The notes: generated by a model from the letters alone, not told the origin. DNA of 64,000 nt from Gemmatimonadaceae bacterium (GCA_031423355.1 JANPFJ010000012.1:7640-71639), one strand, 5' to 3'. Numbered from the stretch's first letter, positions 36,986-56,470 are shown. A program made the numbers and translations.

Positions 36986-37089
36986 CTCTTGGAAAGGCAA
37001 GCGTTTGTCCTTCAGCGAAGCGGCCGGCGCCACGTGGCTCTTGCGTCGGCATCGCCCGTCGCGCAACGAAACGGTGACGGGCCGCGCCC

Positions 37090-42107: not shown

Positions 42108-42325
42108 CATCACCGCCGCATTCCGTCGCAGCCCCGCCAGCTTCGACCGCTTCATCGGTAACTTCCGGAACGCCGCGCTGAGCGCGTCCGTAAGCTTCCC
42201 GCGCCCGGAACGGCGGATCGTCCACGAGTTCAACCGAGAACTTCACATTCCACGGACACACGCTCTGGGAGGTGTGTCCGTACAACCGTTTTGAGATCGT
42301 GCTTGCGACGGGCCTGCGAACGCTG
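42108..42325 (-). repeat. QueG-like dispersed repeat, long copy 4 (internal ~55-bp deletion)
   Basis: RRPVASTISKRLYGHTSQSVCPWNVKFSVELVDDPPFRARE...SPMKRSKLAGLRRNAAVML. It contains a perfect 9-bp-stem hairpin, cggacacac-N10-gtgtgtccg, at 42253-42280. Confidence 0.85.
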
Positions 42326-43583: not shown

Positions 43584-44117
43584 TCATCGCGTCGGGTCGT
43601 GTGTCGCGGAGGGCTTTGCTGGTGACTTCTTCACGGGCGACTTCATGGCGGTCTTCGTCGCGGTCTTCGTGGCGGTCTTCGTGGCGGTCTTCGTGGCGGT
43701 CTTCGTGGCTGTCTTCGTCGTGGGTCGCGCGGCCGCGGAAGTGGTGGACGTCCGCGCCGGTGTCTTCGCGGCTGTCCCTGCCGATGCCTTCGATTTCGCT
43801 GGCGCCTTCGCCTTGGGCGTCGGCATCGCCTCGGCTGTCAGGAGCAAGACTCGCTGGAGCAGTTCACGGTCGTCGAGCTGCTCGGTGATGCAGAAGTGTG
43901 GCTTGGCACCCGGATAGGGCGGCTGCAGGTCGACCACACCAAGCAATGCGGCTCCCATGGGTGTCGGCTTCACGAACAACGTGTCATCACAGACGAGTGC
44001 GGCGACCTTGCCATCCACGTAGAGCGCATACTCACCGAACATCTTCCGGGCAGTGATGCGCTGCGCGAGGCCGGACTGCGCACAGATGAAATCGACGGTT
44101 TGCGGGGTTGTGGCCAT
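43584..44117 (-). CDS. TfoX/Sxy N-terminal-domain protein with a Lys/Ala/Thr-rich histone-H1-like tail
   Basis: ITARKMFGEYALYVDGKVAALVCDDTLFVKPT is a TfoX_N motif. The tail is PKAKAPAKSKA...(TKTA)x6...KSPVKKSPAKP. Confidence 0.75.
   Translation of the reverse strand: MATTPQTVDFICAQSGLAQRITARKMFGEYALYVDGKVAALVCDDTLFVKPTPMGAALLGVVDLQPPYPGAKPHFCITEQLDDRELLQRVLLLTAEAMPTPKAKAPAKSKASAGTAAKTPARTSTTSAAARPTTKTATKTATKTATKTATKTATKTAMKSPVKKSPAKPSATHDPTR
43647..43718. repeat. 12-bp tandem repeat, (g/c)gc(g/t)gtcttcgt x6, in frame in the TfoX tail
   Basis: Units start at 43647, 43659, 43671, 43683, 43695 and 43707. They encode (TKTA)x6 on the minus strand. Confidence 0.95.
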
Positions 44118-44189: not shown

Positions 44190-44510
44190 TCACACGCGAA
44201 TCGTCTCCCTGAACACACGCGACGCCTGGTACGAATCCGCGCCGTTGTGATACACGAACACCGTATCGTACCGCCGGTCGCAGCGGAACGCGCCGCCACG
44301 CGCGCGAATGCTGGACGGAGTCTGCACCCAGCTCGACGTCTTGCGGTCGCACTCGCCACGCAGCTGCAGCGCGCGGCTCTGTTCCTCACGCAGCAGGTCG
44401 ATGCCCATCGTCGACGCCGTCTCGACGGCATGATGACATCGAGCGACTTCGTACGCGCTGCGCACCACGGTGCGAAATGCTCTGCACACGGCAAAGGGCC
44501 ACCACGTCGA
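44190..44510 (-). pseudogene. DUF4256-family protein, C-terminal ~100 aa only, fused in frame to a QueG-like repeat
   Basis: AVCRAF...ASTMGIDLLREEQSRALQLRGECDRKTSSWVQTPSSIRARGGAFRCDRRYDTVFVYHNGADSYQASRVFRETIRV resembles the DUF4256 tail as I remember it (TSSWVKTP..IR.LGGA.FCDRRY..VFVYHNGA.SY). The N-terminal half is missing. Confidence 0.55.
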
Positions 44511-44535
44511 ACCGTAATGGCGTCTACGCTCATTG

Positions 44536-44800
44536 TTGAGCACGACCACTGCATTCCGCCTGAGCCCCGCCAACTTCGCCCGCTTCATCGCGACTTCCTG
44601 AACGCCGCGCTGAACTGCTCCTGATCGCGCGCCAGGATCTCAGTCGCCAGTGTCACCCCGTCCTTCCCCGTGATGAACTCCCGCGCCCGAAACGGCGAAT
44701 CGTCCGGCAATACCTGCGAGAACTTACCATTCCATGTACACACACTCTGGGCGATGTGTCGGTATACCCGTTTTGAGATCGTGCTCGCGACCGGTGGCCG
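44536..44800 (-). repeat. QueG-like dispersed repeat, long copy 5
   Basis: RPPVASTISKRVYRHIAQSVCTWNGKFSQVLPDDSPFRAREFITGKDGVTLATEILARDQEQFSAAFRKSRMKRAKLAGLRRNAVVVLNN. Confidence 0.85.
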
Positions 44801-45691: not shown

Positions 45692-45700
45692 GCGGTGAGT

Positions 45701-46810
45701 ATGGAAATGAAGAAAACAACGGTCCTGAAAATCACGGGCGCCGGCGCTGCCCTGTTCCTGACCGCCGCGCTGCTGGTGACGCTGCATGTCCTGCCCTCGC
45801 CGATGGATCTGGCGAGGCACGGGTCACCGCAAAAAGACCTCGTCATCGACCATGCCATGCGCGACCAGGTGCTCGAGAGCCTGATCGCGAACCTCAATGC
45901 CACTTACGTCTTTCCCGACAAGGCCAAGGCGATGGAAACCGCGCTGCGCAGCAGGCAGCAGCGCGGCGAATACGAGAAAATCGCGAGTGCGGAGGAATTC
46001 GCGGCAACCTTGACCGACGATCTGCGCCGCGTCAGCGATGATCGCCATCTCGATGTCGGGTACAGCGAGAAACCGATCCCGATGCCGCAGGTCGGCGTAG
46101 ACCCTGATGCCATGTCCATCGAGCAAGTCGAGGAAATGATTCACCACAACTACGGCATCGAAGCCGTACAGCGCTTGCCGTTCAATATAGGCTATCTCGA
46201 CCTGCGCGAGTTCGCTCCCGCCGATCACGTCGCCGGCCGGCTTGGCGCCGCGATGACCCTGTTGTCGCAGACCGACGACCTGATCATCGATTTGCGTTCC
46301 AACAACGGCGGCGATCCGAAGACCGTGGAATTGCTCGCCAGCTATCTGTTCGACGCACGAACTCGTTTGAACGACATCTACCTGCGCCCGGACAACCGGA
46401 CGGAGCAGAGTTGGACACATGATCGGCTGTCAGGTCCAAGATACGGCGGCAAGCGGAAGATCTATCTGCTGACCAGCCGGGATACGTTTTCCGCGGGCGA
46501 GGATTTCGCGTACGCGCTGAAGAATCTCAAGCGCGCCACGCTGATCGGCGAGGGTACAGGCGGAGGTGCGCATCCCGGCTCGGCTGTCAGGTTGAACGAA
46601 CACTTCGGTGCCATCGTGCCCAGCGGCCGCTCGATCAGCCCGATCACGCACACCGACTGGGAAGGCGTCGGCGTCGTGCCCGATATCGCCATGGACGCCG
46701 ACGATGCGCTGGACCACGCCCAGGTGATGATCATCAAGGACCGCCTGCGTACCGAGAGGGATGCTTTCAAGCGCGATCGTCTGCTGGCTGGCCTCGCCAG
46801 GTTCGACTGA
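45701..46810 (+). CDS. S41-family peptidase (IRBP/tail-specific-protease-like), secreted
   Basis: N-terminal hydrophobic segment, then LIIDLRSNNGGDP and KIYLLTSRDTFSAGEDFAYALKNLKRATLIGEGTGGGAHPG. It is paralogous to the C-terminal half of 53636..56470. Confidence 0.85.
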   Translation: MEMKKTTVLKITGAGAALFLTAALLVTLHVLPSPMDLARHGSPQKDLVIDHAMRDQVLESLIANLNATYVFPDKAKAMETALRSRQQRGEYEKIASAEEFAATLTDDLRRVSDDRHLDVGYSEKPIPMPQVGVDPDAMSIEQVEEMIHHNYGIEAVQRLPFNIGYLDLREFAPADHVAGRLGAAMTLLSQTDDLIIDLRSNNGGDPKTVELLASYLFDARTRLNDIYLRPDNRTEQSWTHDRLSGPRYGGKRKIYLLTSRDTFSAGEDFAYALKNLKRATLIGEGTGGGAHPGSAVRLNEHFGAIVPSGRSISPITHTDWEGVGVVPDIAMDADDALDHAQVMIIKDRLRTERDAFKRDRLLAGLARFD

Positions 46811-47249
46811 GAAGACGCTGCGGCGGCGATATGCGCACCCCAGTATGTGGCGGTGGGGCGAGTTGCGCGGCGATCGCCTCATCACCATTCTGTCGTCGTG
46901 TGTCTCCGACGAGTATCTCACCACGCTTCGCGACACTGGTGTCTCGTACATCCTGGCCGCCACTGATGACGTCGATCTCGCCGCCGTCATGCAGCAACTT
47001 GACTCGCGCTTCGGTGTGCGGACGCTGATGCTCGAGGGTGGTGCCGGGCTCAATGGCGCTATGCTGCAGGCGGGGCTCGTGGATGAGATCAGCGTGTTGG
47101 TCGCGCCCGTCGTTGACGGACGGAGCGGCATCGCGACGCTCTTCGATCAGCCTCCACTTGTCGGCGCCGCGCACCGAGTGCGTTTGCAGCGCGTGGATCG
47201 TGTTACAGACGATGTGCTCCACCTGCGGGATGAGGTGCTGCGGGGCTGA
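46761..47249 (+). pseudogene. RibD_C / dihydrofolate-reductase-like family protein, N-terminally truncated
   Basis: Only the C-terminal ~130 aa are recognisable (YILAATDDVDLAAVMQQLDSRFGVRTLMLEGGAGLNGAMLQAGLVDEISVLVAPVVDG). The region before about 46830 overlaps the peptidase gene. Confidence 0.55.
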
Positions 47250-47446
47250 GTTCGCCGCATTCGTAACCTTTGCAGCAGGCATGGCCGCCGCGGTGTGGCA
47301 GACCACGCGGTCGGATGTGGCCGAAGAAATCGCGCTCGCGAACGCACTGCGCACGCCACAGCGGCGCTTGAGTCGATCCGGCTAAGCCAGGTGTTTCGGC
47401 AAGCCGGTACGGCACGGTCATGGCGCGTCGTGACGTTCAAGGTCGC

Positions 47447-47712
47447 TCAGCACCAACGCGGCATTGCGCTTGAGCCCCGCCAGCTTCGCCCGCTTCATCG
47501 GTGACGTCCGGAACGCCGTGCTGAACGCCCCCTGATCGAGCGCCAGAATGTCCGTCGCCAGCGTCACCGCATCCTTCCCCGCAATGAACTCCCGCGCCCG
47601 GAACGGCGAGTCCTCCGCCAGTTCCTGCGAAAACTTCACGTTCCACGGACAGCAGGTCTGGGAGATGTCTCGGTATAACCGCTTTGCGATCCCGCTCACG
47701 ACGGGGCGGGGC
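47447..47712 (-). repeat. QueG-like dispersed repeat, long copy 6 (uninterrupted reading frame, ORF 47418..47741)
   Basis: RPVVSGIAKRLYRDISQTCCPWNVKFSQELAEDSPFRAREFIAGKDAVTLATDILALDQGAFSTAFRTSPMKRAKLAGLKRNAALVLSD. It lacks the N-terminal two thirds of a real QueG. Confidence 0.85.
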
Positions 47713-47820
47713 ACCCTCAGCGCAGGAGGGCGTCCCGGCACTCGTCGCGACGCCCTGACGGTGTGACCTTAGTCACAGATACTGAATGGTCGGCTGCGTG
47801 TCTCCATCTCCGGGATCCCG

Positions 47821-48053
47821 ATGGCGATTCTCGTCAGCAAGACCCGAGCACAGGGCGCCTCAGTCGTCAGAACGCTCCCCGCCGAGGTCGCGCGCCGCCT
47901 GTCGGTGACGCCTGGGCAGGAACTCGAGTGGATCGAGGACGGCATGGGCGGCTTCCGTGTGGTGCCCCCCCCCCCGAGACCGCCGAGGCGCTGGTCGTGC
48001 ACGAGAAGATCATGACCGAATACGACGCGGTGTTTCGCGCGCTCACTCGGTAG
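47821..48053 (+). pseudogene. AbrB/SpoVT-type antitoxin of a Doc module, frameshifted at an 11-C homopolymer
   Basis: MAILVSKTRAQGASVVRTLPAEVARRLSVTPGQELEWIEDGMGGFRVVP, then C x11 at 47965-47975. The expected tail ETAEALVVHEKIMTEYDAVFRALTR is in the neighbouring frame and ends at TAG 48051-48053. Confidence 0.65.
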
Positions 48054-48062
48054 GCACGATCA

Positions 48063-48335
48063 GTGAAACCGGAGCCGCGCTGGCAAACGGACACCACGCT
48101 GCTCGCAATCCATGCGCAGCAGATCGAACGGCGTGGCGGTGAGCACGGTGTTCGCGATCAGCACATGGTGCTGTCAGCGCTGGCGCGACCTAAGCAGCGC
48201 TGGCACTACGATGCGTCGGCCGATCTCGCCGACGTGGCAGCGTTGTATCTGGTTGGCCTGCCGCAGGCGCAGGGGTTCGTCGACGGGAACAAGCGCACGG
48301 GGCTGGCCCGGGCGTTGGTGTTCCTTGCGCTCTCG
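48063..48335 (+). pseudogene. doc: Doc/Fic-family death-on-curing toxin, truncated and with the catalytic His replaced
   Basis: LLAIHAQQIERRGGEHGVRDQHMVLSALARP...AALYLVGLPQAQGFVDGNKRTG. The Fic motif reads QGFVDGNKR instead of H-x-F-x-D-G-N-K-R. Homology ends at about 48335, where an opposite-strand RHH gene begins to overlap. Confidence 0.65.
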
Positions 48336-48474
48336 CCGCCGCGTCCTGCCGAATCGCCTCGGCCACGATCCCGCTGCGCGAGCGACCATGCTGCGCCGCG
48401 CGTTCGTCGGCGGCGCGCAGTGTTCCGGGCGGCAGCGGAATGCCGATGCGGGCGATGGGGGGCTTGCGGTCCAT
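48190..48474 (-). CDS. ribbon-helix-helix (CopG/Arc-like) protein; the tail beyond ~50 aa is probably non-native
   Basis: MDRKPPIARIGIPLPPGTLRAADERAAQHGRSRSGIVAEAIRQDAAARA has the RHH pattern. The rest of the ORF runs antisense through the Doc relic. Confidence 0.45.
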   Translation of the reverse strand: MDRKPPIARIGIPLPPGTLRAADERAAQHGRSRSGIVAEAIRQDAAARAQGTPTPGPAPCACSRRRTPAPAAGQPDTTLPRRRDRPTHRSASAA

Positions 48475-48517
48475 GGAGAATCACACTCGGTGACACTGAA
48501 TGTGACACCCTCCTCTC

Positions 48518-51172
48518 TCACGTCCGGCCCCTCAACCCCACGAGTCCCCCCATCTCCACCCCCACCCGCCCCGCGAGCTCGAGAATTTCCACCACCTGCC
48601 CCTTCTTCAGCGCTCCCCGGCTGTAGTGTCCCTCGCGCCCCGACAGCCCCAACGTGATCGTCTCCGCGAGGCACGCATAGATCTGTCCCGTGGGCAGCGG
48701 CATCCACCCCGTCGCCAGCGCCTGTCTCTCGGGAAGTTGCGCCAGCGAGCCGTGATACGCCGCCACATCGGGGCGCTCCGTGAATACCGCGGGGGCGATG
48801 TTGGAAGGCACCGAAATGTCGAGAATCACGGCTCCCCACTTCAGGATGTCCGAGGTGATGAGAACGTCGGTCGTGCTGGTGCCAAGCACGATCGCATCGC
48901 AATCGATCAACGCGCCCACGTCGTCGCTCACCCGCACTGCCGCCGCGTCGATCGCCGAGCCCTGGAGGATGCGCGTGCGCGCCAGCTCCATGCGCCGAGC
49001 CGCATCATCCCCCCGCCGGTGGATCAACGTCATCGCCGCGGCATGGTCGCCGATGAGCTGCGCCAGGACGTTGCAGATGTTGCCGGCTGCCCCTACCACT
49101 CCCACTCGGCACTCCTTCAACGCGCGACCGCGCTCGCGAAGCGCACGACGCAGCGTCTCGAAGGCGAAGCCGGCGGTGAGGCTGTTGCCTGTCGTGATCG
49201 ATGGCCCGTATTCGCTGACGAGCAGTCCGTTGCTGGAGACGATGCTCGTGTACTGCCCAAGCCCTGCCAAGGCGCACCCACGGCGCCCGGCGAGCGTGAC
49301 GGCGCGTCGCACTTCCTCCAGCGCGGCAAAATCGCGGCGCTTGAGCGACTGCTCGAAGAACTCCGTCGTCCGCATGATGCCGTACACCTCGAGTTGGATG
49401 CGCTCGCCCGTCGCCGATTCGATCTCCTGCTCCAGGTAGACCACCGGATCGGCGACATCGCCAAAGGTGTCCATGAAGCGGCGACGCTCGCCCGCGCTCA
49501 GCGCGGCCAGTGCGGCGTCCATGTTGCCGGCGTTGGCCTGGTCGATGACATGCGTGACGAAGGCCACTCGGCGCGCCCCGTGACGCCCGTTCGAACGCGC
49601 CCGCACGAGCGGGGCCGAGCGTACCTCGAGCGCATCGGGTGGGAGGTTGTCGTGCCAAAGGTCGCGCGTCAGCTGCAACAGCTGGCGGTTGCGGATCAGT
49701 ACGCAGAGTTCGCGCAGCGCCGCCAGCGTGCGATCGACCTCCACATCGCTCACGTATACACTTGGCTCGATGCGCAGTACCGTCGTGCGGCTCAGCGTCA
49801 CCCCCACACGAATGCCATGGCGCGTCAGCAGGTAGCTCATGAAGAGGTACGAGCCAAGCCCTGCGTCGGTCGCCGTCTTGAGAAAGAGCGGGATCTCGAC
49901 GGCGTCACCCGCGAGGTCGAAGTCGAGACCCAGGAGAAAGCCGCGTCCGCGTACGTCCGCGATGTACCGTCCCACCTCTTGCTGGATCGCCGCGATCCCC
50001 TCGCGCATGCGCGCCTCGAAGCGCCGCGCGCGCTCACTCACGGATGGCGTGAGCGACTCCACCTCATCGATCGCCGCCAGCGCCACCAGGCACGACGGCT
50101 CGTCCTCGGCGAAGGTCGAGCTGTGCATCCACCCGAACTCCGCGACGTACCGGTCAGCTGCAATGCATGTCGCCGAGAGCTTTGACAGGCCGCCACCCAG
50201 GCTCTTGCCGAGCAGGATGTAGTCCGGCTGGAGTGCGAGGTGCTCGCAGCAGAGGAAGCGGCCCGTCCGGAAGAAGCCGGACTGGATCTCGTCGGCGATG
50301 AGCGGCACGCCGAGCGCGCCACGCACGCCTTCCATCCAGCGGGCGAAGGGCTCAGGGAGCGGGAACATCCCCCCCTCGCACTGGAGCGGTTCGAAGATGA
50401 TCCCGACGATCGGCGAGATCTTCCCCAGGCCGACAGCGCCCGCATCGATCGTGAGCGACCGAACCACCTCGTCGCAGCCAGCGGTGTCGGACGCGTCAAG
50501 GAAGAGCGTGTCGACCGGGGCGCGGTCGAACATCGACCGGAAGGCGGGGTTCGAGGTCGCCGACAGGGCGCCCGCCGTCTTGCCGTGGTAGCTCCCCTGC
50601 ACCGCGAGGAGGATCGGCGCCTGGCGCTCGACCGCTTCCTTGAGCGCGCGAAGCGGTGCGACTGACGGATCCTCCGGACGCTGGTCCAGGCACTCCAGGA
50701 GCATTTTGTCGATGGTCGTGGTCCAGTGCCGTCGACGCGCGCCGTGCTCCATGAGCGCATGCTTGATCGCCGCCTCGACTGCCTCGGTCCCCGTGCTGGA
50801 GAAGTGGACGAGGTGTCCGTCGCTCGAGGGGAGCGCGCTCCGCAGAAGTCCACCCAACCGTTCAGCGAGTGTCGCGGCCGGCTCGCGCACCGACCCCTGC
50901 ACATTGGTCGGGACGCCGGCCGCGTACGCGTCGCACAGCGTCTTCACGAGGCGCGGATGGTTGTGACCGAGCAAGGTCGAGCCGTAGCCGCCGAGTAAGT
51001 CGAGCACCTCGCGGCCGTCAGCGTCGGTGAGGAGGTCACCCTCTGCCCGCGTGTAGACGCGGTCGATCGCCAGCAGTCGCAGGAGCCTGGCGATGTAGGG
51101 CTTGACGTGCCGTTCGTACCGCGCGGTCGCGTCGGCGGTCTCTGCGGCGAGGGTGGTGTCGGAGTGTGCCAT
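48518..51172 (-). CDS. fusion protein: class-III PLP aminotransferase (N-terminal ~540 aa) plus acyl-ACP reductase (AAR)-like NAD(P)H domain (C-terminal ~340 aa)
   Basis: Starts at ATG 51170-51172. Aminotransferase motifs are LLGGYGSTLLGHNHP, VQGSYHGKTAGALS, IADEIQSGFFRTGRF and the PLP-Lys context ILLGKSLGGG. The reductase-like part has VAFVTHVID, LAGLGQYTSIV, ITTGNSLTA, VGVVGAAGNICN, VILDISVP and YACLAETITL, parallel to cyanobacterial AAR (GLIGHLTS, ALGGFTSII, FTTGNTHTA, VAVVGATGDIGS, VLIDGGYP, FACFAEAMLL). Confidence 0.8.
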   Translation of the reverse strand: MAHSDTTLAAETADATARYERHVKPYIARLLRLLAIDRVYTRAEGDLLTDADGREVLDLLGGYGSTLLGHNHPRLVKTLCDAYAAGVPTNVQGSVREPAATLAERLGGLLRSALPSSDGHLVHFSSTGTEAVEAAIKHALMEHGARRRHWTTTIDKMLLECLDQRPEDPSVAPLRALKEAVERQAPILLAVQGSYHGKTAGALSATSNPAFRSMFDRAPVDTLFLDASDTAGCDEVVRSLTIDAGAVGLGKISPIVGIIFEPLQCEGGMFPLPEPFARWMEGVRGALGVPLIADEIQSGFFRTGRFLCCEHLALQPDYILLGKSLGGGLSKLSATCIAADRYVAEFGWMHSSTFAEDEPSCLVALAAIDEVESLTPSVSERARRFEARMREGIAAIQQEVGRYIADVRGRGFLLGLDFDLAGDAVEIPLFLKTATDAGLGSYLFMSYLLTRHGIRVGVTLSRTTVLRIEPSVYVSDVEVDRTLAALRELCVLIRNRQLLQLTRDLWHDNLPPDALEVRSAPLVRARSNGRHGARRVAFVTHVIDQANAGNMDAALAALSAGERRRFMDTFGDVADPVVYLEQEIESATGERIQLEVYGIMRTTEFFEQSLKRRDFAALEEVRRAVTLAGRRGCALAGLGQYTSIVSSNGLLVSEYGPSITTGNSLTAGFAFETLRRALRERGRALKECRVGVVGAAGNICNVLAQLIGDHAAAMTLIHRRGDDAARRMELARTRILQGSAIDAAAVRVSDDVGALIDCDAIVLGTSTTDVLITSDILKWGAVILDISVPSNIAPAVFTERPDVAAYHGSLAQLPERQALATGWMPLPTGQIYACLAETITLGLSGREGHYSRGALKKGQVVEILELAGRVGVEMGGLVGLRGRT

Positions 51173-51716
51173 TGGGCGCCGTAACCTTGAGAGGGGAGTC
51201 TCGCGCTCCGAACGGAGCGCGAGGACAACCTCGGCGTTCCGGCACCGGCGCCCCATCCGTCAAGTGACGTAGATGGCTGGGGTTGATGACGTATGCATGG
51301 CACGGTGTGGAAATCGCGTGCATCGCCGTCGCCTGGCGCCGACACGGGGGTCAGTGGCCAGCGCGGCCCCGCGGTGGGGCAGCCGCAACGGTACGGTACC
51401 CCCCCGCCACCGCGCGAACGCACACACTGGAGCGATCCCTACTCCCGTGAGAGAGTCAGGCGCGTGGGATTTGACCCTCGGAGCAGGGGAGTGCAGCGCC
51501 ACAAATGCGGCGGGCAAGCGATGACTGCAGGCCTCATCGCACTCATCACGGACGCACTGGCCGCGGCCACGTCGACCTGCACCGCGACCACCCAGCCGCC
51601 GCGCGTCTTTGCGGAGCGGACCTGTCAGACGCTCGACAGCTGGACGTGCGTACGCCGCGTGGTCGCCAGCACACCACTCCGGCGGCCACAACTTCACCCG
51701 TGGTGAATACTCCAGG

Positions 51717-51845
51717 CTAGCGGAACATGTCCATGTTACCCAGCAACCACCACAACACCAGAAAGATCAGCACGGTGCTGAAGCAGCCGCCTCCCAGCTT
51801 CTTGGCACCATATCCGGCGGCCAGCCCACGCAGCAGCTTGCTCAT
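51717..51845 (-). CDS. 42-aa small membrane protein (below the ORF-track cutoff)
   Basis: MSKLLRGLAAGYGAKKLGGGCFSTVLIFLVLWWLLGNMDMFR, from ATG 51843-51845 to TAG 51717-51719, with one clear TM helix. Its coding status is unverified. Confidence 0.35.
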   Translation of the reverse strand: MSKLLRGLAAGYGAKKLGGGCFSTVLIFLVLWWLLGNMDMFR

Positions 51846-51988
51846 TGCGTCACTCCTTCACACAGGTAAGGCTCGCGCGATGCGAGCTGAACGCTGGAAT
51901 GCCGCCAATCGCACCGACGGCCCGCACGTTGCATGTAATGAACGGTGTTCGCTCACGGCAGTCATCGCGTCCAGCACGGAGTCGTCCC

Positions 51989-52741
51989 ATGTCGTACGGC
52001 ATTCGCCACAGGCAGGATTCGATTCCTGTCGTGTTTCCTCTTCTGCTCGCCACCGGAGCGCTGAGCCTGCTCGCGATCGTGTGGCGGCAGCGCAGTGCAC
52101 CCCGGCACGAACGCAATCTGCTGCCGAACGCCGCCTCACGCCGACTTCGTCGTGCCAGCGAACGTCTCGACACCGGTGACGGTACGCAGCTGGCGAGCGG
52201 TGGCAGCGGCGCACTGATTCATCGCCGGTACGAGATTGCACTCCCCAATAGCGCCGTCAGCCACGACATCGTCCTGCGGTTGATGCAGCTGCATCTCACC
52301 GAGTTCGCACCCGCCACGCTCGCACGATTCGAGAAGCGCGTGGGCAGTGATCAGCTATTCCGCGTCGGGGACGAGTACGAAATCACGATGCTCGGACCTT
52401 GGAACGGTCGCGTTCGCGTCGCCGAGATGACGCAAGACAGCTTCACGCTCGTGACGCTCGAGGGACATCCGGAAGCCGGTCACATCACGTTCTCCGTGCA
52501 GGATGACACCAACTCGGCGGGACAGCTGCTGGTGCGCATCGAGTCACTGGCCCGGTCACGTCATGCGATCGTGGCGGCGGCCGACGGAGCGCTGCGCGTC
52601 GGCAAACGGGTGCAGACCGAGGTGTGGATCACGTTCCTTCAGCGGTTTGCCCTGCTCGCCGGCGTCAGCACACGCCCGGAAGTCGGCATCACAACCGAAT
52701 CACTGCCCGACGCGACCACCGTTCCGCCGCGTGACGCCTGA
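51989..52741 (+). CDS. DUF1990-domain protein with an N-terminal TM segment
   Basis: Starts at ATG 51989. IHRRYEIALP...FRVGDEYEITMLGPWNGRVRVAEMTQDSFTLVTLEGHPEAGHITFSV has the DUF1990 pattern. Confidence 0.65.
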   Translation: MSYGIRHRQDSIPVVFPLLLATGALSLLAIVWRQRSAPRHERNLLPNAASRRLRRASERLDTGDGTQLASGGSGALIHRRYEIALPNSAVSHDIVLRLMQLHLTEFAPATLARFEKRVGSDQLFRVGDEYEITMLGPWNGRVRVAEMTQDSFTLVTLEGHPEAGHITFSVQDDTNSAGQLLVRIESLARSRHAIVAAADGALRVGKRVQTEVWITFLQRFALLAGVSTRPEVGITTESLPDATTVPPRDA

Positions 52742-53122
52742 TTCTGCCGCGCTCGACGCGGCGCTGGTGAAGCGACTGGCCGAGATCGGGCTGATGGAAC
52801 CAACGATCGATCTCGCGCAGCGCGACAGCTACGTCGCTGCCGCCGGATGGCACGTGGACTCGCGAGAGGCACCCTCGCCGGCCACCCCGAGCGCGGCGAG
52901 ATCACGTTCGAGCTCGTGAAGCAGCAGGCCACCGGTGCGGTGGCGTTCCGCATCCATTCGTTCTCGCAGACGGGCCACATCGCCAACCTGCTGCATCGCA
53001 TCGGCTTCCGGCTCGTCGGACGTCGGCTGCAACGACGTTTTGCGGAAGAATCATTGGCCAACATGCAACGGGTGGTGGGCGCCGAGGTCGCCGCTCGCGG
53101 CCACGTTGCCGAGCGCGAATGA
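52731..53122 (+). pseudogene. second, short DUF1990-like gene with a frameshift near 52860
   Basis: A GTG at 52731 overlaps the upstream stop. VTPDSAALDAALVKRL...AAAGWHVDSRE then continues in another frame as LAGHPERGEITFELVKQQATGAVAFRIHSFSQ (ORF 52847..53122). Confidence 0.4.
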
Positions 53123-53344: not shown

Positions 53345-53595
53345 GCAACCGTCGCATTCCGCTGTAACCCGCGCCGCTTCGCGCGTTTCATCGGCGAGTT
53401 CTCGAACGCCACGCTGAACGCCACCTGATCCAACGCCAGAATGTCTCGCGCCAGCGTCACTGCGTCCTTCGCCGTGATGAACTTACGGGTTGCGAATGGT
53501 GAGTCTTCACCAGCGCGTAGAAGCACTGCACAGTTCACGGACACACGCTCTGGGAGACGTGTTGGTATGACCGTACCGAGATTCCGCTGAGCACT
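53345..53595 (-). repeat. QueG-like dispersed repeat, long copy 7 (frameshifted)
   Basis: ..SQSVCP(frameshift)..GEDSPFATRKFITAKDAVTLARDILALDQVAFSVAFENSPMKRAKRRGLQRNATVA. Confidence 0.85.
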
Positions 53596-53635
53596 GGATC
53601 GCTCACGATCAACCGGTGAAAGTGCTCACTGATGG

Positions 53636-56470
53636 TCACGGCGCGCGCCCGACCCGCCGCAGTGCCGTTGCGAGCGACTCCCCTGCCGGAACCGTCACGT
53701 CCGGCACGACGCCGACGCCCTCCCAGTTCGTCAGCGTCACCGGGTTCACTGGGCGAGCGAACGGCACGGCCATCAGGAAGTGGTCGTCAATCCGGTGACT
53801 CGCCATCGGGTGCGCGCCCCCGCCGGTGATCTCTCCGATGATGGTCGCTCGTTTCAGTTGCTGCAGGTCGTACGCGAATTCCTCGCCGCCAGAGAAGGTG
53901 CGCGACGACGTGAGCACGTACACCGGCCTCGCACCACCGAAGCGCAGGCCAGGCACACTGTCTCGCGTCCAGAACTCTTCGGTCGTGCCAGTGCGGCGCG
54001 TCCAGAGATCGTTGAGGTGCGTGCGCCCGTCAAAGAGGTAGGACGCGACGTAGGACACCATCGCCGGCTCTCCGCCGCCGTTGTCGCGCAGGTCGAGGAT
54101 GAACTCGCGCGTACCGGCGATGGCAGTCATCGCCGCCGATGCCGAGGCACCGCAGAATTCGGGATCGGCGAACATGTCGAGCTTGATGTAGCCGACGTTT
54201 CCGGACAGCACCTCGACCTTGTCGAAGCCACACTTGATCCCGTCCAACCGCGCCTGCTCTCGCGCTGCGGCTTCGGCTGAGCGCACGGCTGACATGTGTG
54301 AGTCAGGCGGTAGCACCTCCACGCTGTAGATCAGGTGCAAGTGCTTGTCGCGCGTCAGTTCAGCCAGGTCGTCGTCGAGGCGCATCGCGAATGAGACCCC
54401 GTTGCCGAACAGGCCATACGCGCCACGCGCACTCCGGACGCGCAGCGTATCCCCCACGTGCTTCGCCACGTCCGGCGACACGTAGAACGTGTCGAGCAGC
54501 GCCGCGGTGGCGGCGACCGTCCGCGCTCGCGTCGCGGCATCGAGGCGCAGTGCGGCGGCGGTGACGTTCGCTCCGAGCGGTTGAAAGCGCCGCATGCTGA
54601 CGTGGTGCGGCGCGGCGGCAGACACGTCGATCACTCCGTACGCCGTCATCGGGCTCCTGCGCTCGCGCACGATGAACTCCACGCGCCGTGGGCCGCTCCG
54701 CTCGATGCTGAGCAGCTCGAAACCGCCCGTCTGCTCGCGGAATCCGAGCTCGTCCCCGACGACGACGTTTGGCTCGAAGCGCCGAGCGTAGGCGGCGACG
54801 CGCGCGCTGTCAGCGCTGTTGAACGCGGCGATCCAGGCCCGCAGTGCGTCGCCAGCCAGCGTTCGGGGAATCGCTGGATCGATTCCCGACGTCGTCGCGT
54901 GCGTCGTCGATTGCCGGATGGTCGGCGCCTTCGCTGCGATACGTGCACTCAAGGACGCCTGCGCGCTGGCCGGCGTGGGAACGGCGACGGCGAGCAGGGG
55001 TGCGAAGAACAGAACTCGGAGGCGCATTGCGAGATTCCCGTGTTGTATGCCACGATGCGACAGGTATGCGATCAGGAGGGCACAGAGGATCAGCAGCGCA
55101 CCGAAGGCGAACGTGACGCGCATGCCGGTCGCGATCGCTGCGGGATGGGCGGTCACGACGTTGATCGCCCCCGTCGCCCGCGCGAACAGCGCGCCCATCA
55201 CCGTCACACCCGTGATGAGACCGAGATTGCGTGACAGGCCGAGCAGACCGGAGATGACACCGACTCCGTCCGGACGAGTACTCGTCATCACGGCCGTGTT
55301 GTTGGCGGCCTGGAACAGTGAGTACCCTGCGGTGATCACGACCAGCGGCGCCACATACCCTGCAATGCCGACGCTCATCGGAGACACAGCAATGCCAGCG
55401 CAGCCGGCCACCATTCCGATCAGACCGGCAATCGTTGCGACACTGGCGCCGAATCGATCCACGACGCGGCCGCCCGGCGCGCTCGTCAGTGCCGCGACGA
55501 TCGGACCCGATGACATCACGAGTCCGACGTGAGCCGCGTCGAGTCTCAGCGCGCCGGCGAGATAGAACGGGCCAACCACCAGCGTGGCCATCACCACGGT
55601 CGTGACGAGGATGCTCATCACGAAGCCCGCACCCAGTGCGGCGCCCCGGAGCATGGACAGGTGGACCAGCGGCGACTCGGCCTTCGACTCCGCGAACGCG
55701 AACAGCCCACCGCTGACCAGGGCGCCGAACAGCAAGCCCACGTTCAGCACACCGAAACTCCCGCGGCCGATCGTCATGGCGAGTGCATACGACGCGATCG
55801 TCAGCGTGAGGAGTACCGTACCGAGGACGTCGAACGCGGCACGGTCCGACGTCAATTCGTCGGAATCGGCTGGCAGGAACCGATGCGCCAGCAGGAGTGC
55901 CAGAACGCAGAGCGGTACGCACGCGAGAAAGATGGCCCGCCAACCGAAGGACGTGATCAGTACGCCGCCGAGCGCTGGGCCGAGCGCCGTGCCGACGGCA
56001 GACATCGTGCCGAGCAATCCCATTGCGCGGCCCGTCTTCTCTTTCGGGATCGTCTTCGCAACGAACGCGATGGTCAGGGCCATCATGATCGCTGCACCGA
56101 GACCCTGGAGCGCGCGGGCGACAACCAGCGTCCAGAGCGACGGCGCACCACCGCACAGCACTGATGCCACGGTGAACAGGCTCATCCCCGAGAGGAGCAG
56201 CCGTCGTCGGCCAATGATGTCGCCCAACCGTCCAACGCTGACGATCAGTGTCGTGATCGCGAGAAGATACGCGAGCACGATCCATTGCACGCTCTGAAAA
56301 GGCGCATTGAACGCCTGCGCCAGTGTCGGCACGGCGACATTCGCGATGTTGGTGCCAAGCGACGAGAGCAGCATCGAGAGAGAGAGGCTGACCAGTATGC
56401 CTCGCTCCGACCGGCCGCGTCGCGAACGGTCAGTCCTGTTCGGGTCTGGTCTTGCGGCGGCCGTTGTCAT
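53636..56470 (-). CDS. single 944-aa ORF joining a 14-TMS MFS (DHA2/EmrB-like) transporter to a signal-peptide-bearing S41 peptidase
   Basis: The MFS part covers aa 1-~480 (GRLGDIIGRRR, ARALQGLGAA). Then LSHRGIQHGNLA-MRLRVLFFAPLLAVAVPTPASAQ follows with no stop (internal ATG at 55025-55027). The S41 part has FILDLRDNGGGEP and VYVLTSSRTFSGGEEFAYDLQQLKRATIIGEITGGGAHP. Confidence 0.8.
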   Translation of the reverse strand: MTTAAARPDPNRTDRSRRGRSERGILVSLSLSMLLSSLGTNIANVAVPTLAQAFNAPFQSVQWIVLAYLLAITTLIVSVGRLGDIIGRRRLLLSGMSLFTVASVLCGGAPSLWTLVVARALQGLGAAIMMALTIAFVAKTIPKEKTGRAMGLLGTMSAVGTALGPALGGVLITSFGWRAIFLACVPLCVLALLLAHRFLPADSDELTSDRAAFDVLGTVLLTLTIASYALAMTIGRGSFGVLNVGLLFGALVSGGLFAFAESKAESPLVHLSMLRGAALGAGFVMSILVTTVVMATLVVGPFYLAGALRLDAAHVGLVMSSGPIVAALTSAPGGRVVDRFGASVATIAGLIGMVAGCAGIAVSPMSVGIAGYVAPLVVITAGYSLFQAANNTAVMTSTRPDGVGVISGLLGLSRNLGLITGVTVMGALFARATGAINVVTAHPAAIATGMRVTFAFGALLILCALLIAYLSHRGIQHGNLAMRLRVLFFAPLLAVAVPTPASAQASLSARIAAKAPTIRQSTTHATTSGIDPAIPRTLAGDALRAWIAAFNSADSARVAAYARRFEPNVVVGDELGFREQTGGFELLSIERSGPRRVEFIVRERRSPMTAYGVIDVSAAAPHHVSMRRFQPLGANVTAAALRLDAATRARTVAATAALLDTFYVSPDVAKHVGDTLRVRSARGAYGLFGNGVSFAMRLDDDLAELTRDKHLHLIYSVEVLPPDSHMSAVRSAEAAAREQARLDGIKCGFDKVEVLSGNVGYIKLDMFADPEFCGASASAAMTAIAGTREFILDLRDNGGGEPAMVSYVASYLFDGRTHLNDLWTRRTGTTEEFWTRDSVPGLRFGGARPVYVLTSSRTFSGGEEFAYDLQQLKRATIIGEITGGGAHPMASHRIDDHFLMAVPFARPVNPVTLTNWEGVGVVPDVTVPAGESLATALRRVGRAP

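What the first reader, a model, noticed from the sequence alone, without database searches (positions are those of the whole stretch)
48518..51172. Aminotransferase fused to an acyl-ACP-reductase-like domain: a predicted one-polypeptide fatty-amine synthase
The N-terminal ~540 aa have class-III (omega/GABA/acetylornithine-type) PLP aminotransferase motifs: GHNHP, YHGKT, ADEIQSGFFRTGRF and the lysine in LGKSLGGG.

The C-terminal ~340 aa line up, block for block, with the cyanobacterial aldehyde-forming acyl-ACP reductase as I recall it. This includes the Rossmann motif VGVVGAAGNICN and the catalytic-Cys context YACLAE (AAR: FACFAE).

An acyl-thioester reductase makes a fatty aldehyde, and an omega-transaminase would convert that aldehyde to a primary amine. 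Fusing the two would channel the reactive aldehyde. Reductase plus transaminase pairs are known in polyketide-alkaloid pathways, but I do not know of a characterised AAR-transaminase fusion.

The gene sits alone, with no PKS or FAS genes, inside a repeat-bounded accessory block next to TA debris and a 42-aa membrane peptide ORF.
Basis: partly seen in the sequence, partly recalled or inferred. Interest (0 to 1): 0.7.

Follow-up and report, generated by a model that had tools for sequence, protein, structure and literature searches.

The report
TamH-type transaminase–thioester reductase fusion enzyme
This gene encodes a two-domain enzyme of an already characterised kind (like TamH of tambjamine and PigE of prodigiosin biosynthesis) that reduces an acyl-thioester to an aldehyde and then aminates it to a primary amine; here it sits alone, without a partner pathway, in a probable Gemmatimonadota genome.

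Summary
It has an N-terminal class-III omega-transaminase domain (Pfam E=3e-61; PLP lysine K323) and a C-terminal acyl-ACP-reductase-like thioester reductase domain. The reductase-domain model matches cyanobacterial AAR at TM 0.81-0.84, and C834 aligns to the AAR catalytic Cys294.

The novelty claim is wrong. This TA-TR architecture was characterised biochemically in PtTamH (ACS Catal 2022: C12-ACP to C12 aldehyde to C12 amine). The reversed order occurs in PigE (RSC Chem Biol 2021).

The family is large: 2,975 reductase-domain cluster representatives across many phyla. In two genomes the unit forms the C-terminus of PKS or PKS-NRPS megasynthases, directly after a carrier domain.

What is particular here is the context. 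No carrier protein, adenylation, ketosynthase or PigC-like gene was detected by tblastn in the 64 kb. The closest relatives (58-97% identity) are equally orphan, and they share a clade-specific upstream motif. Both domains are under purifying selection (dN/dS 0.13). The gene lies between two copies of a queG-3'-end-like repeat, next to a MazE/Doc pair.

Verdict: new member of a known kind. Substrate and physiological role are unknown.

The parts
48518..51172 (-). TA-TR gene: 884-aa bifunctional omega-transaminase / thioester reductase (stop codon 48518-48520)
   Evidence: ORF list. The identical protein is called as 884 aa in four run assemblies. Pfam and NCBIfam hits. Full-length AF2 model pLDDT 90.8, pTM 0.85. 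dN/dS 0.13 against the 89% homologue.
49673..51172 (-). N-terminal class-III (omega) PLP transaminase domain, aa 1-500
   Evidence: Aminotran_3 E=3.2e-61. Foldseek top hits are CrmG 5dds (TMt 0.82), the PigE 4ppm TA domain and putrescine aminotransferase YgjG. Invariant D294, Q297, K323 and T353 in 40 homologues.
50204..50206 (-). Codon of K323, the predicted PLP Schiff-base lysine (LGKSLGGG)
   Evidence: Aligns to the Lys of LAKAIGGG in CrmG, LAKALGGG in YgjG and LGKALSGG in AcOAT. Invariant in A1.
49574..49672 (-). Interdomain linker, aa about 501-533
   Evidence: pLDDT dip at 527-530 and secondary-structure break in the AF2 model. PtTamH has a comparable linker of about 50 aa (PMC9594044).
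48521..49573 (-). C-terminal AAR-like thioester reductase (TR) domain, aa 534-884
   Evidence: Profile against PDB: PigE N-domain 1.4e-36; AAR 6jzu 1.3e-20 over residues 35-334 of 341. Domain model pLDDT 92.9. Foldseek: AAR 6jzy TM 0.81/0.84, E=1.7e-22; carmabin TAD TM about 0.7; other folds TM <=0.43.
49169..49195 (-). TTGNSLTAG motif (aa 660-668), the Thr-Thr-Gly element next to the catalytic Cys in AAR and TAD
   Evidence: T660, G662 and N663 are invariant. It aligns to the TTGN motif of AAR and to TSGN at the same position in PigE. The role of the TTG motif in TAD is described in bioRxiv 10.1101/2024.10.28.620694.
49070..49105 (-). Rossmann dinucleotide-binding motif VGVVGAAGNICN (aa 690-701)
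   Evidence: G694, G697 and N698 are invariant. It aligns to VAVVGATGDIGS of AAR.
48671..48673 (-). Codon of C834 (YACLAE), the predicted acyl-enzyme nucleophile
   Evidence: Aligns to AAR C294 (FACFAE) and to PigE Cys296 as numbered in PMC8341465. C834 and E837 are invariant in 40 homologues.
51251..51293 (-). Clade-specific conserved upstream element TACGTCA-N14-CTACGTCACTTGACGGATGGGG, a candidate promoter or operator
   Evidence: Alignment A4. The pattern TACRT-N16-CTACG has one hit in the window against 0.03 expected. It is present upstream of the gene in all near-clade loci (L001-L004, L086-L090) and absent upstream of the gene in the distant loci.
51200..51223 (-). Perfect 10-bp hairpin (CTCGCGCTCC-GTTC-GGAGCGCGAG) in the 5' leader
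   Evidence: Read directly from the sequence. Partly kept in L001. No Rfam family matches.
47421..47741 (-). Flanking repeat, downstream side: queG-3'-end-like fragment (107-aa ORF)
   Evidence: TIGR00276 QueG positions 220-307 of 337, E=1.1e-6. Repeat family found.
53347..53612 (-). Flanking repeat, upstream side: degenerate queG-3'-end-like fragment, interrupted by a stop or frameshift
   Evidence: tblastn and blastn against the 47.4-kb copy: 72% aa, 74% nt. Weak QueG hit.
47821..48626 (+). Convergent MazE/AbrB-type antitoxin (47821-48015) and Doc/Fic toxin (48063-48626). Context only, not part of the enzyme. The Doc ORF overlaps the 3' end of the TA-TR gene by 109 nt.
   Evidence: Pfam MazE_antitoxin E=1.3e-6 and Fic E=1.9e-12. 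The same pair sits next to the gene in L087.

Best explanation
The gene encodes a TamH-type bifunctional enzyme.

Proposed mechanism:
1. The C-terminal AAR-like domain takes an acyl chain from a phosphopantetheinyl thioester (acyl-ACP, possibly acyl-CoA) onto Cys834.
2. It reduces that acyl-enzyme with NAD(P)H bound at the GxxGxxG Rossmann site and releases an aldehyde.
3. The N-terminal class-III omega-transaminase, probably the dimerisation core, uses PLP on Lys323 and an amino-acid donor to convert the aldehyde into a primary amine.

No dedicated carrier protein, adenylating enzyme, ketosynthase or PigC/TamQ-like condensing enzyme was found in the 64-kb window or next to the closest relatives. 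The most likely acyl donor is therefore a housekeeping pool, fatty acyl-ACP from FAS as for cyanobacterial AAR, which would give free medium- or long-chain alkylamines.

Shown here: domain identities, conservation of catalytic residues, fold, family distribution, purifying selection and the orphan context.

Inferred: direction of the reaction, acyl donor, chain length, cofactor, amino donor and physiological role.
For: **Domains**
- Aminotran_3 E=3e-61.
- The best NCBIfam hit is PigE, with the query's C-terminal half aligned to the PigE N-terminal reductase region.
- AAR model TIGR04058 E=9e-14 over 36-331 of 339.

**Catalytic residues**
- K323, D294, G694/G697, C834 and E837 are invariant in 40 homologues down to 31% identity.
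- C834 aligns to AAR C294. K323 aligns to the Schiff-base Lys of CrmG and YgjG.

**Fold**
- The TA domain matches CrmG, PigE and YgjG, all of which act on terminal aldehyde/amine groups.
- The TR domain matches AAR at TM 0.81-0.84. These are the same two nearest structures reported for PtTamH (PMC9594044).

**Biochemical precedent**
- PtTamH, with the same TA-TR order, converts C12-ACP to dodecanal to dodecylamine.
- PigE reduces a thioester and transaminates the product.

**Family context points to carrier-bound thioesters**
- L011 is KS-AT-DH-ER-KR-ACP-TA-TR. L047 is KS-AT-DH-KR-ACP-C-A-PCP-TA-TR.
- Among neighbours at 36 loci: AMP-binding 8, ketoacyl-synt 7, PP-binding 4.

**The gene is functional**
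- dN/dS is 0.13 overall, 0.13 for TA and 0.105 for TR.
- GC3 is 0.85, like host genes.
Against: - Nothing here was tested biochemically.
- The window protein scores far below the curated cut-offs of both named models: PigE 333 against 850 bits, AAR 51.5 against 449.7. It is neither an equivalog of PigE nor of AAR.
An orphan enzyme may therefore depend on a partner encoded outside the 64 kb.
- The nearest outgroup clade (44-48% identity) is always paired with a PigC/Rph-like gene. The ancestral role may have been natural-product-like rather than bulk fatty-amine synthesis.
- Thioester reduction is reversible, so the direction is not fixed by sequence.
- The partner-gene search was tblastn with a handful of queries, which is insensitive for small ACPs.
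Confidence: 0.7

Rival explanations
1. Same chemistry, but not a free-standing fatty-amine synthase. The enzyme would be one step of a dispersed natural-product pathway. Its true substrate would be a functionalised thioester (for example a keto-acyl chain as in PigE, giving a cyclic imine) delivered by a dedicated carrier protein. Its amine product would be consumed by a PigC/TamQ-like or other enzyme encoded elsewhere in the genome.
For: - Both characterised relatives work inside BGCs.
- The closest outgroup clade is always divergently paired with a PPDK_N-Rph-PEP-utilizer (PigC/TamQ-type) gene.
- In L001/L002 (89% identity) a flavin amine oxidase (the Pfam family I recall PigB belonging to, not tested here) and a P450 lie directly upstream on the same strand.
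- PtTamH is ACP-specific.
- Only 64 kb of the genome was inspected.
Against: - Neighbours are not conserved among six near-clade loci: window, L001/2, L003, L004, L090.
- Synteny with the 89% homologue ends exactly at the gene plus its 155-nt leader.
- No carrier, A-domain, KS, PigC-like, amine-oxidase or P450 homologue is in the window.
- The gene carries its own clade-specific upstream element, which fits an autonomous unit.
Confidence: 0.2
2. The enzyme runs in the catabolic direction. The transaminase would deaminate an environmental alkylamine or polyamine-type compound to an aldehyde. The AAR-like domain would then oxidise the aldehyde with NAD(P)+ onto Cys834 and pass it to CoA or ACP, feeding beta-oxidation.
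For: - CoA-acylating aldehyde oxidation is thermodynamically favourable (established biochemistry).
- Top structural relatives of the TA domain include the catabolic putrescine aminotransferase YgjG.
- The orphan, accessory-island context with no biosynthetic partners fits a scavenging function.
- An amine oxidase neighbour occurs in L001.
Against: - Every characterised member of the AAR/PigE/TamH reductase family works reductively.
- The unit is fused after carrier domains at the release end of megasynthases.
- No beta-oxidation or transporter genes are conserved next to the near-clade genes.
Confidence: 0.07
3. The C-terminal half is a generic NAD(P) dehydrogenase (shikimate DH, amino-acid DH or glutamyl-tRNA-reductase-like) unrelated to thioester reduction, or the gene is a decaying or chimeric remnant in a junk-rich island.
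For: - Pfam sees only a weak Shikimate_DH match: 25.3 bits against a cut-off of 24.3.
- JGI annotates relatives as 'predicted amino acid dehydrogenase'.
- A weak GluTR model hit, E=2.4e-7, is limited to the Rossmann part.
- The surrounding block contains truncated genes.
Against: - The Shikimate_DH match covers only aa 683-796, the Rossmann core.
- The full-length domain matches AAR in sequence (1.3e-20) and fold (TM 0.81-0.84). No GluTR or shikimate DH structure scores E<=1 in the profile search, and other folds reach TM <=0.43.
- The Cys and TTGN motifs are invariant.
- The ORF is intact, dN/dS is 0.105 for this domain, and the identical protein occurs in four independent assemblies.
Confidence: 0.03

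Closest known systems
PtTamH (Pseudoalteromonas tunicata tambjamine YP1 pathway; WP_009837236.1; Richardson et al., ACS Catal 2022, PMC9594044)
   Same: - Same two domains in the same order: N-terminal class-III omega-TA, a linker of about 35-50 aa, then a C-terminal AAR-like TR.
- Same catalytic set: PLP Lys, GxxGxxG and a Cys in the ..AC.AE.. context.
- Same nearest solved structures, CrmG and SeAAR 6JZY.
- Similar size: 884 against 941 aa.
   Different: - TamH sits in the tam BGC with TamA (ANL-ACP) as acyl donor and TamQ to consume the amine. The window gene has none of these within 64 kb.
- I could not obtain the TamH sequence, so identity and phylogenetic position relative to it are not measured.
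- Hits of TamH-like length (930-990 aa) are about 31-35% identical to the window protein.
- Cofactor (TamH is NADH-specific), donor and chain-length preference are unknown here.
PigE (Serratia prodigiosin MAP branch; PDB 4PPM; Couturier et al., RSC Chem Biol 2021, PMC8341465; NCBIfam NF053554)
   Same: - Best-scoring curated family for both halves and best PDB sequence hit.
- Same reductase family with the conserved Cys (PigE C296), and the same class-III TA.
   Different: - Domain order is reversed: TR at the N-terminus, TA at the C-terminus.
- The window protein scores 333 bits against an equivalog cut-off of 850.
- PigE acts on 3-acetyloctanoyl thioester inside the pig cluster, and its product cyclises to H2MAP.
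Cyanobacterial acyl-ACP reductase AAR (S. elongatus Orf1594; PDB 6JZQ/6JZU/6JZY; TIGR04058)
   Same: - Whole-domain fold: TM 0.81-0.84 at 20-22% identity.
- Shared TTGN motif, Rossmann motif and catalytic Cys294 position.
- Uses FAS acyl-ACP without a dedicated carrier, which is the model for how an orphan TA-TR could be fed.
   Different: - AAR is a stand-alone protein of about 340 aa that hands its aldehyde to the deformylating oxygenase ADO to make alkanes. Here the aldehyde acceptor is a fused transaminase.
- 51.5 bits against a 449.7 cut-off, so it is not an AAR equivalog.
CrmG (caerulomycin) and YgjG/PatA omega-transaminases
   Same: - Nearest solved structures to the N-terminal domain: TMt 0.82-0.87 at 23-29% identity.
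- Both interconvert terminal aldehydes and primary amines.
   Different: They are single-domain enzymes with no fused reductase.
Terminal amidation domain, TAD (CarI, carmabin; PDB 9E4S etc.; Rankin et al., bioRxiv 10.1101/2024.10.28.620694)
   Same: - An AAR-related two-lobed fold with an invariant Cys beside NAD(H).
- Sits after a carrier domain at the release end of NRPS lines.
- Second-best fold match, TM about 0.7.
   Different: - Much more distant: profile E=1.8e-6.
- No fused transaminase.
- Its proposed product is a terminal amide and its chemistry is unresolved.
GluTR-GSAM complex (haem pathway), and the non-homologous TabE/TabA and CAR plus omega-TA systems
   Same: They share the logic of an activated carboxyl reduced to an aldehyde and handed directly to a class-III PLP enzyme (PMC8341465). 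TabE/TabA make dodecylamine from C12-ACP in Streptomyces (bioRxiv 10.1101/2025.08.11.669332).
   Different: - GluTR acts on Glu-tRNA. It is only weakly similar, in the Rossmann part alone.
- TabE is an ALDH-type reductase unrelated to AAR.
- These are separate proteins, not fusions.

Membership tests
TamH-type TA-TR didomain enzymes | N-terminal class-III omega-transaminase with a PLP-binding lysine | tested here: met
   Pfam E=3.2e-61. K323 aligns to the Schiff-base Lys of CrmG and YgjG and is invariant. Fold matches CrmG at TMt 0.82.
TamH-type TA-TR didomain enzymes | C-terminal AAR-like thioester reductase with GxxGxxG and a catalytic Cys | tested here: met
   G691-x-x-G694-x-x-G697 lies within VGVVGAAGNICN, and C834 sits in YACLAE. 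G694, G697 and C834 are invariant.
TamH-type TA-TR didomain enzymes | Domain order TA then TR on one polypeptide, joined by a short linker | tested here: met
   TA aa 38-443 and TR aa about 534-884. Linker confidence dips at 527-530.
TamH-type TA-TR didomain enzymes | Direct sequence relationship to PtTamH itself | not tested
   The PtTamH sequence (WP_009837236.1) was not retrievable. The relationship is inferred through PigE, AAR and the architecture described in PMC9594044.
TamH-type TA-TR didomain enzymes | Cognate acyl donor (TamA-like ANL-ACP) and amine consumer (TamQ/PigC-like, MBC genes) in the same cluster | tested here: not met
   tblastn with A-domain, ACP/PCP, KS, AT, KR, C and PigC-like queries found nothing in the window. 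Pfam on neighbours found none.
TamH-type TA-TR didomain enzymes | Acyl-ACP to aldehyde to amine activity | not testable with these tools
   Needs enzyme assays.
PigE (NCBIfam NF053554, equivalog) | Whole-protein score at or above the curated cut-off (850 bits) | tested here: not met
   333.4 bits.
PigE (NCBIfam NF053554, equivalog) | TR N-terminal and TA C-terminal; located in a pig cluster with PigB, PigC and PigD | tested here: not met
   The query's C-terminal half aligns to PigE positions 51-334 and its TA to the PigE C-terminal part, so the order is reversed. No PigC-like gene was found by tblastn, and Pfam on the neighbours showed no other pig-type genes.
Cyanobacterial AAR (TIGR04058, equivalog) | Score at or above 449.7 bits; stand-alone protein of about 340 aa | tested here: not met
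   51.5 bits. The domain is fused to a 500-aa transaminase.
Cyanobacterial AAR (TIGR04058, equivalog) | AAR fold with Cys294-equivalent nucleophile next to the NADPH site | tested here: met
   TM 0.81-0.84 to 6jzy/6jzu. The Cys is aligned.
Cyanobacterial AAR (TIGR04058, equivalog) | Adjacent aldehyde-deformylating oxygenase (ADO) partner | not tested
   No ADO query sequence was available. No ferritin-like or ADO family appeared in the Pfam scans of neighbours.
Terminal amidation domain (TAD) | Close sequence membership; terminal position after a PCP with no transaminase | tested here: not met
   Only E=1.8e-6 and TM about 0.7, clearly weaker than AAR and PigE. A TA domain is present here.
   Pfam Shikimate_DH scores 25.3 bits over the Rossmann core only. 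GluTR scores E=2.4e-7 over residues 143-273 of the C-terminal-half query (about aa 667-797 of the protein) only. No such structure scores E<=1 in the profile search. Foldseek TM <=0.43. The Cys is invariant.

The most novel reading that the evidence does not exclude
The Gemmatimonadota-type orphan clade (window, P0001-P0012) would be a self-sufficient alkylamine synthase. It would draw directly on housekeeping acyl-ACP or acyl-CoA, as AAR does, with no dedicated carrier protein, and release free primary fatty amines as end products or lipid building blocks. It would be switched by a clade-specific regulator acting on the TACGTCA-N14-CTACGTCA element. It would travel as a single-gene unit (gene plus 155-nt leader) between toxin-antitoxin-rich islets bounded by queG-tail repeats. 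That would be the first TA-TR enzyme operating outside a pyrrole-alkaloid BGC, and a natural one-enzyme route from the acyl pool to fatty amines.
Probability: 0.22. Interest if true: 0.55.

Novelty: new member of a known kind. Interest (0 to 1): 0.3.

Why it matters
- **Biocatalysis.** Natural thioester-to-amine enzymes are sought for making fatty amines, and so far only PtTamH has been shown to do it. PtTamH needs its own ACP partner. An orphan homologue that accepts housekeeping acyl-ACP or acyl-CoA would be more useful, and would show that bacteria make free alkylamines outside pigment pathways.
- **Annotation.** The family has about 3,000 clusters at 50% identity. Public databases label members only as 'class III aminotransferase' or 'predicted amino acid dehydrogenase'. 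A correct name could be propagated widely.
- **This locus.** The result is mostly a correction.

Tried and rejected
- **Full-length fold search.** It returned only transaminase hits. The TR domain had to be modelled separately from a truncated alignment.
- **Genome-collection scan with the family alignment.** It returned neither the near clade nor P. tunicata TamH, so no direct TamH comparison or named host came from it.
- **Cluster look-up.** It gave no names for near-clade proteins.
- **Rfam E-value scan of 40-58 kb.** It found nothing in the conserved 5' leader; the only hit was a chance miRNA match.
- **Sigma-70 promoter scan around the gene.** No sites were found. The one terminator-like hairpin lies inside the 42-aa ORF and is within chance expectation.
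- **First motif searches.** I used the wrong spacer (N17) and got zero hits. The corrected N16 pattern worked.
- **tblastn for partner genes in the window.** All negative. Queries were ACP, PCP, A, C, KS, AT, KR, PigC-like, and the amine oxidase and P450 of L001.
- **ARAGORN.** The single 95-nt tRNA-Arg call lies inside a kinase ORF and was dismissed as a likely false positive.
- **The longer 912-aa start at 51256.** I considered and rejected it. The extra 28 residues are not conserved, homologues align at M1 = 51172, and gene callers use 884 aa.
- **PROSITE-style class-III regex.** It does not match, because Tyr follows the Asp of PDY. I judged this irrelevant given the HMM and structural evidence.
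- **Intact queG search.** I looked next to the repeats and found none.

Full report
**1.

The minus strand carries one long ORF, 48518..51256. Three things support that start:
- The N-termini of 40 homologues align there.
- Gene callers give 884 aa for the identical protein in four independent sequencing-run assemblies, L086-L089.
- The 28 extra residues from the upstream ATG are not conserved.

| Motif | Residues |
|---|---|
| GHNHP | 69-73 |
| YHGKT | 195-199 |
| ADEIQSGFFRTGRF | 293-306 |
| LGKSLGGG (K323) | 321-328 |
| VGVVGAAGNICN | 690-701 |
| YACLAE (C834) | 832-837 |

Codon-position GC (GC3 0.85) matches neighbouring genes, and bulk GC shows no anomaly at the gene.

**2. N-terminal domain**

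- Pfam Aminotran_3 matches aa 38-443 at E=3.2e-61.
- The nearest solved sequences and folds are CrmG (TMt 0.82, 28% identity), the transaminase domain of PigE, and putrescine aminotransferase YgjG. All of these interconvert terminal aldehydes and primary amines.
- K323 aligns with the lysine of LAKAIGGG (CrmG) and LAKALGGG (YgjG), which is the canonical Schiff-base position. D294 aligns with the DE(V/I)Q aspartate.
- D294, Q297, K323 and T353 are invariant in 40 full-length homologues down to 31% identity.

**3. C-terminal domain**

Pfam sees only a marginal Shikimate_DH match over the Rossmann core, aa 683-796, at 25.3 bits. Curated and structural comparisons are much clearer:

| Comparison | Result |
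|---|---|
| NCBIfam PigE model, its N-terminal positions 51-334 | E=1.7e-34 |
| NCBIfam cyanobacterial AAR model, positions 36-331 of 339 | E=9.4e-14 |
| 19-sequence domain profile vs PDB, PigE | 1.4e-36 |
| Same profile vs PDB, S. elongatus AAR (residues 35-334 of 341) | 1.3e-20 |
| Same profile, any GluTR or shikimate DH structure | none at E<=1 |

In those alignments C834 (qiyaCLAEti) pairs with AAR FACFAE. Counting along the printed alignment, that Cys is residue 294, the acyl-enzyme nucleophile (role as cited in PMC9594044 and PMC8341465). The TTGN and GxxGxxG motifs align as well.

An AlphaFold model of the domain alone has pLDDT 92.9 and pTM 0.92. Foldseek against PDB gives:
- AAR 6jzy/6jzu first: TM 0.81-0.84, E=1.7e-22.
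- The AAR-related terminal amidation domain of carmabin CarI next: TM about 0.7.
- Then a gap down to generic Rossmann enzymes at TM <=0.43.

The domain is not a different NAD(P) enzyme, the Cys is present, and the fusion is not an assembly artefact.

**4. The architecture is already known**

A literature search found two directly relevant papers.
- *Couturier et al. 2021 (PMC8341465).* PigE, long called a transaminase, has an N-terminal AAR-like thioester reductase domain (Cys296). It converts a 3-acetyloctanoyl thioester to H2MAP through the aldehyde.
- *Richardson et al. 2022 (PMC9594044).* PtTamH is described as a natural N-terminal omega-TA / C-terminal AAR-like TR fusion (K340, G707xxG710xxG713, C887). 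In vitro, with TamA-loaded C12-ACP, NADH and L-Glu, it makes dodecanal and then dodecylamine. It did not use C12-CoA. Its closest structural homologues were CrmG and SeAAR 6JZY, the same two I obtained independently for the window protein.

A 2025 preprint reviews this and describes a non-homologous two-protein equivalent, TabE/TabA. That statement was the main source of the 0.7 interest score.

**5. Family size and contexts**

- A word-indexed search returned 758 proteins at E<=1e-10. Of the 120 listed, nearly all cover 95-100% of the query.
- An exhaustive HMM search with the TR-domain profile found 2,975 representatives of 50%-identity clusters, 1,047 of them at E<=1e-30.
- Among the best 150, most are 820-1,000 aa with the TR at the C-terminus. 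Several are 1,400-3,000 aa. A few are stand-alone at about 390 aa.
- In named genomes the fusion occurs in Proteobacteria, Bdellovibrionota, Planctomycetota, Verrucomicrobiota, Acidobacteriota, Actinomycetota and Bacillota.

Two loci are mechanistically telling:
- In L011 (Maritimibacter MAG) the TA-TR unit is the C-terminus of a KS-AT-DH-ER-KR-ACP protein.
- In L047 (Deltaproteobacteria MAG) it ends a KS-AT-DH-KR-ACP-C-A-PCP line.

In both, the reductase sits immediately after a carrier domain, where reductive chain release is needed.

A bulk Pfam scan of the two genes on each side of 36 fusion loci found AMP-binding in 8, ketoacyl synthase in 7, SDR in 7, PPDK_N in 6 and PP-binding in 4. Per-locus tblastn gave 12 loci with PigC/TamQ-like neighbours, 16 with KS, ACP or A-domain neighbours (L012 has both), and about 20 with none.

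**6. What is particular to this locus**

*No partner genes.* Nothing resembling a carrier protein, adenylation domain, KS, AT, KR, condensation domain, PigC-like enzyme, amine oxidase or P450 is detectable in the 64 kb. Pfam annotation of the neighbours agrees.

*The closest relatives are equally orphan.* They are 58-97% identical (P0001-P0012), and their neighbours differ in every locus:

| Locus | Neighbours |
|---|---|
| L001/L002 | amine oxidase and P450 upstream; ParS/RES downstream |
| L003 | PpoB2, DUF899, AHSA1 |
| L004 | hydrolases |
| L090 | globin, EAL |

*The mobile unit is small.* DNA similarity between the window and the 89% homologue's contig covers only 48517-51328, which is the gene plus 155 nt upstream, at 84.6% identity.

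*A conserved upstream element.* Within that leader all five near-clade loci share TACGTMA-N14-CTACGTCAC..GATGGGG. The pattern TACRT-N16-CTACG occurs once in the window, at 51268-51293, against 0.03 expected. It lies upstream of the gene in every near-clade locus and in none of the roughly 80 distant loci; the one other hit is inside a gene. A perfect 10-bp hairpin follows at 51200-51223. No Rfam family or sigma-70-type promoter matches.

*The next clade out differs.* Homologues at 44-48% identity (L005, L091-L093) are always divergently paired with a PPDK_N-Rph-PEP-utilizer protein. The PigC-like protein of the pig-type cluster in L054 has the same architecture.

*Both domains are under purifying selection.* dN/dS against L001 is 0.13 overall, 0.13 for TA and 0.105 for TR.

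*Host.* A neighbouring M19 dipeptidase is 68-75% identical to proteins named from Gemmatimonadales and Gemmatimonadaceae MAGs. The host is probably a Gemmatimonadota bacterium.

**7. The repeat-bounded block**

The repeats flanking the gene (47421-47741 and 53347-53612, both minus strand) encode a peptide matching the C-terminal part of tRNA epoxyqueuosine reductase QueG: TIGR00276 positions 220-307 of 337, E=1.1e-6.

There are at least seven same-orientation copies between 16.2 and 53.6 kb. Most carry stops or frameshifts. No intact queG lies next to any of them.

The blocks between copies hold truncated genes, regulators and toxin-antitoxin modules. The short contigs carrying the identical protein end close to these repeats.

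The MazE-type antitoxin and Doc toxin next to the gene look intact rather than debris. The Doc ORF runs 109 nt into the 3' end of the TA-TR gene on the other strand.

**8. Most likely mechanism**

1. An acyl group is transferred from a phosphopantetheinyl thioester to Cys834.
2. Hydride transfer from NAD(P)H at the Rossmann site releases an aldehyde.
3. The aldehyde passes to the PLP/PMP site of the fused transaminase and leaves as a primary amine. The amino group comes from an amino acid.

The steps rest on homology to AAR, PigE and TamH and on the conserved residues. They are not demonstrated for this protein.

With no dedicated carrier, the default donor is housekeeping acyl-ACP, as for AAR, or acyl-CoA. 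That would give straight-chain alkylamines.

Rivals:
- **Dispersed pathway (0.2).** A natural-product pathway with partners encoded elsewhere.
- **Catabolic direction (0.07).** The enzyme runs in reverse.
- **Generic dehydrogenase or pseudogene (0.03).** Contradicted.

**9. Verdict**

The enzyme type is already described and assayed. This is a new, contextually orphan member of a large, under-annotated family.

The open questions are its acyl donor, its product and its role. The cis-element and the queG-tail repeat array are side observations that may deserve their own look.

Noticed in passing
window 16249-16383, 16685-16813, 36723-36989, 42079-42321, 44523-44794, 47421-47741, 53347-53612 (all minus strand): At least seven same-orientation copies of a 130-320-nt segment resembling the 3' end of queG (tRNA epoxyqueuosine reductase). 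Most are broken by stops or frameshifts. They are 74-84% identical in DNA to the 47.4-kb copy, and no intact queG is adjacent. They split 37 kb into blocks of 0.3-20 kb holding truncated genes, regulators and TA modules. This looks like serial accretion of islets at a queG-3' attachment site, or a cassette array. No recombinase was identified.
   Followed up: partly
window 51251-51293 and 51200-51223 (minus strand); L001 5272-5297, L003 9877-9902, L004 9889-9914, L090 7904-7929: A bipartite motif, TACGTMA-N14-CTACGTCAC...GATGGGG, followed in the window by a perfect 10-bp hairpin. It is conserved upstream of the TA-TR gene only in the near clade (62-100% protein identity) and absent upstream of the gene in the distant loci. 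No Rfam or sigma-70 match. It is a candidate operator or promoter for an unknown regulator.
   Followed up: partly
L011 3779-12610 (Maritimibacter sp. MAG); L047 2003-12676 (Deltaproteobacteria MAG): The TA-TR unit forms the C-terminus of giant single ORFs: KS-AT-DH-ER-KR-ACP-TA-TR (2,943 aa) and KS-AT-DH-KR-ACP-C-A-PCP-TA-TR (3,557 aa). These are true single-polypeptide synthases that should release their chain as a primary amine. The exhaustive search lists further 1,400-3,000-aa members (P0157, P0176, P0194, P0220, P0237, P0239).
   Followed up: partly
L005 7542-9944 and 12630-14819; L091 2957-5422; L092 5502-7955; L093 5543-7945 and 10630-12825; also L008, L015, L029, L064: In the sister clade (38-48% identity, including Bdellovibrionota-type loci) the fusion is consistently paired with one or two PPDK_N-Rph_4th-PEP-utilizer proteins. 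That is the architecture of the PigC-like protein in L054, and I recall it as the PigC/TamQ condensing-enzyme type. The flanks I inspected contain none of the bipyrrole (MBC) pathway gene types seen in L054. Some loci add acyl-CoA dehydrogenase, sulfotransferase, DAGK_cat and PLD genes. This may be an uncharacterised amine-condensing or lipid pathway.
   Followed up: partly
L001 2632-5124 and L002 967-3459: In the 89%-identical homologue's genome a flavin amine oxidase (Amino_oxidase/NAD_binding_8, which I recall as the family of the dihydropyrrole oxidase PigB) and a P450 lie directly upstream on the same strand. A ParS/RES toxin-antitoxin pair lies downstream. None of these is in the window. 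Both genomes have a TA module right after the gene, but of different types.
   Followed up: partly
window 48063-48626 (+) against 48518-51172 (-): The Doc/Fic toxin ORF is 187 aa, although its Fic domain ends by aa 88. Its tail runs 109 nt antisense into the 3' end of the TA-TR gene (convergent overlap). The tail may be a read-through extension.
   Followed up: no
window 53636-56470 (-) and 45695-46810 (+); inverted repeat 46615-46683 / 53700-53768: There is an unusual MFS transporter fused to an S41 peptidase (944 aa), and a separate paralogous S41 peptidase. Their C-terminal coding ends form a 69-nt, 74%-complementary inverted repeat 7 kb apart that brackets the TA-TR block.
   Followed up: no
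window 43616-43735 and 42624-42740: A 12-nt tandem repeat (about 7 copies) encodes a (TKTA)n tract in the C-terminus of a TfoX_N-domain protein (43584-44117, minus strand). A 15-nt repeat of 6 copies lies inside ORF 42383-42796.
   Followed up: no
window 51845-52741 (+), 52847-53122 (+), 44190-44588 (-), 46761-47249 (+): There are several truncated genes: two DUF1990 pieces, the C-terminal half only of DUF4256, and a RibD_C fragment. They fit a region of repeated insertion and decay around an intact, selected TA-TR gene.
   Followed up: no
public annotations of P0020, P0025, P0097, P0117 and others: Members of this family are annotated only as 'aminotransferase class III-fold PLP-dependent enzyme' or 'acetylornithine.../predicted amino acid dehydrogenase'. 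The thioester-reductase half is systematically unnamed, and Pfam has no model for it beyond a marginal Shikimate_DH hit.
   Followed up: yes
It is called as a gene in the short contigs, but it lies outside the segment conserved with L001. It is therefore not linked to the TA-TR gene. No family hit.
   Followed up: partly
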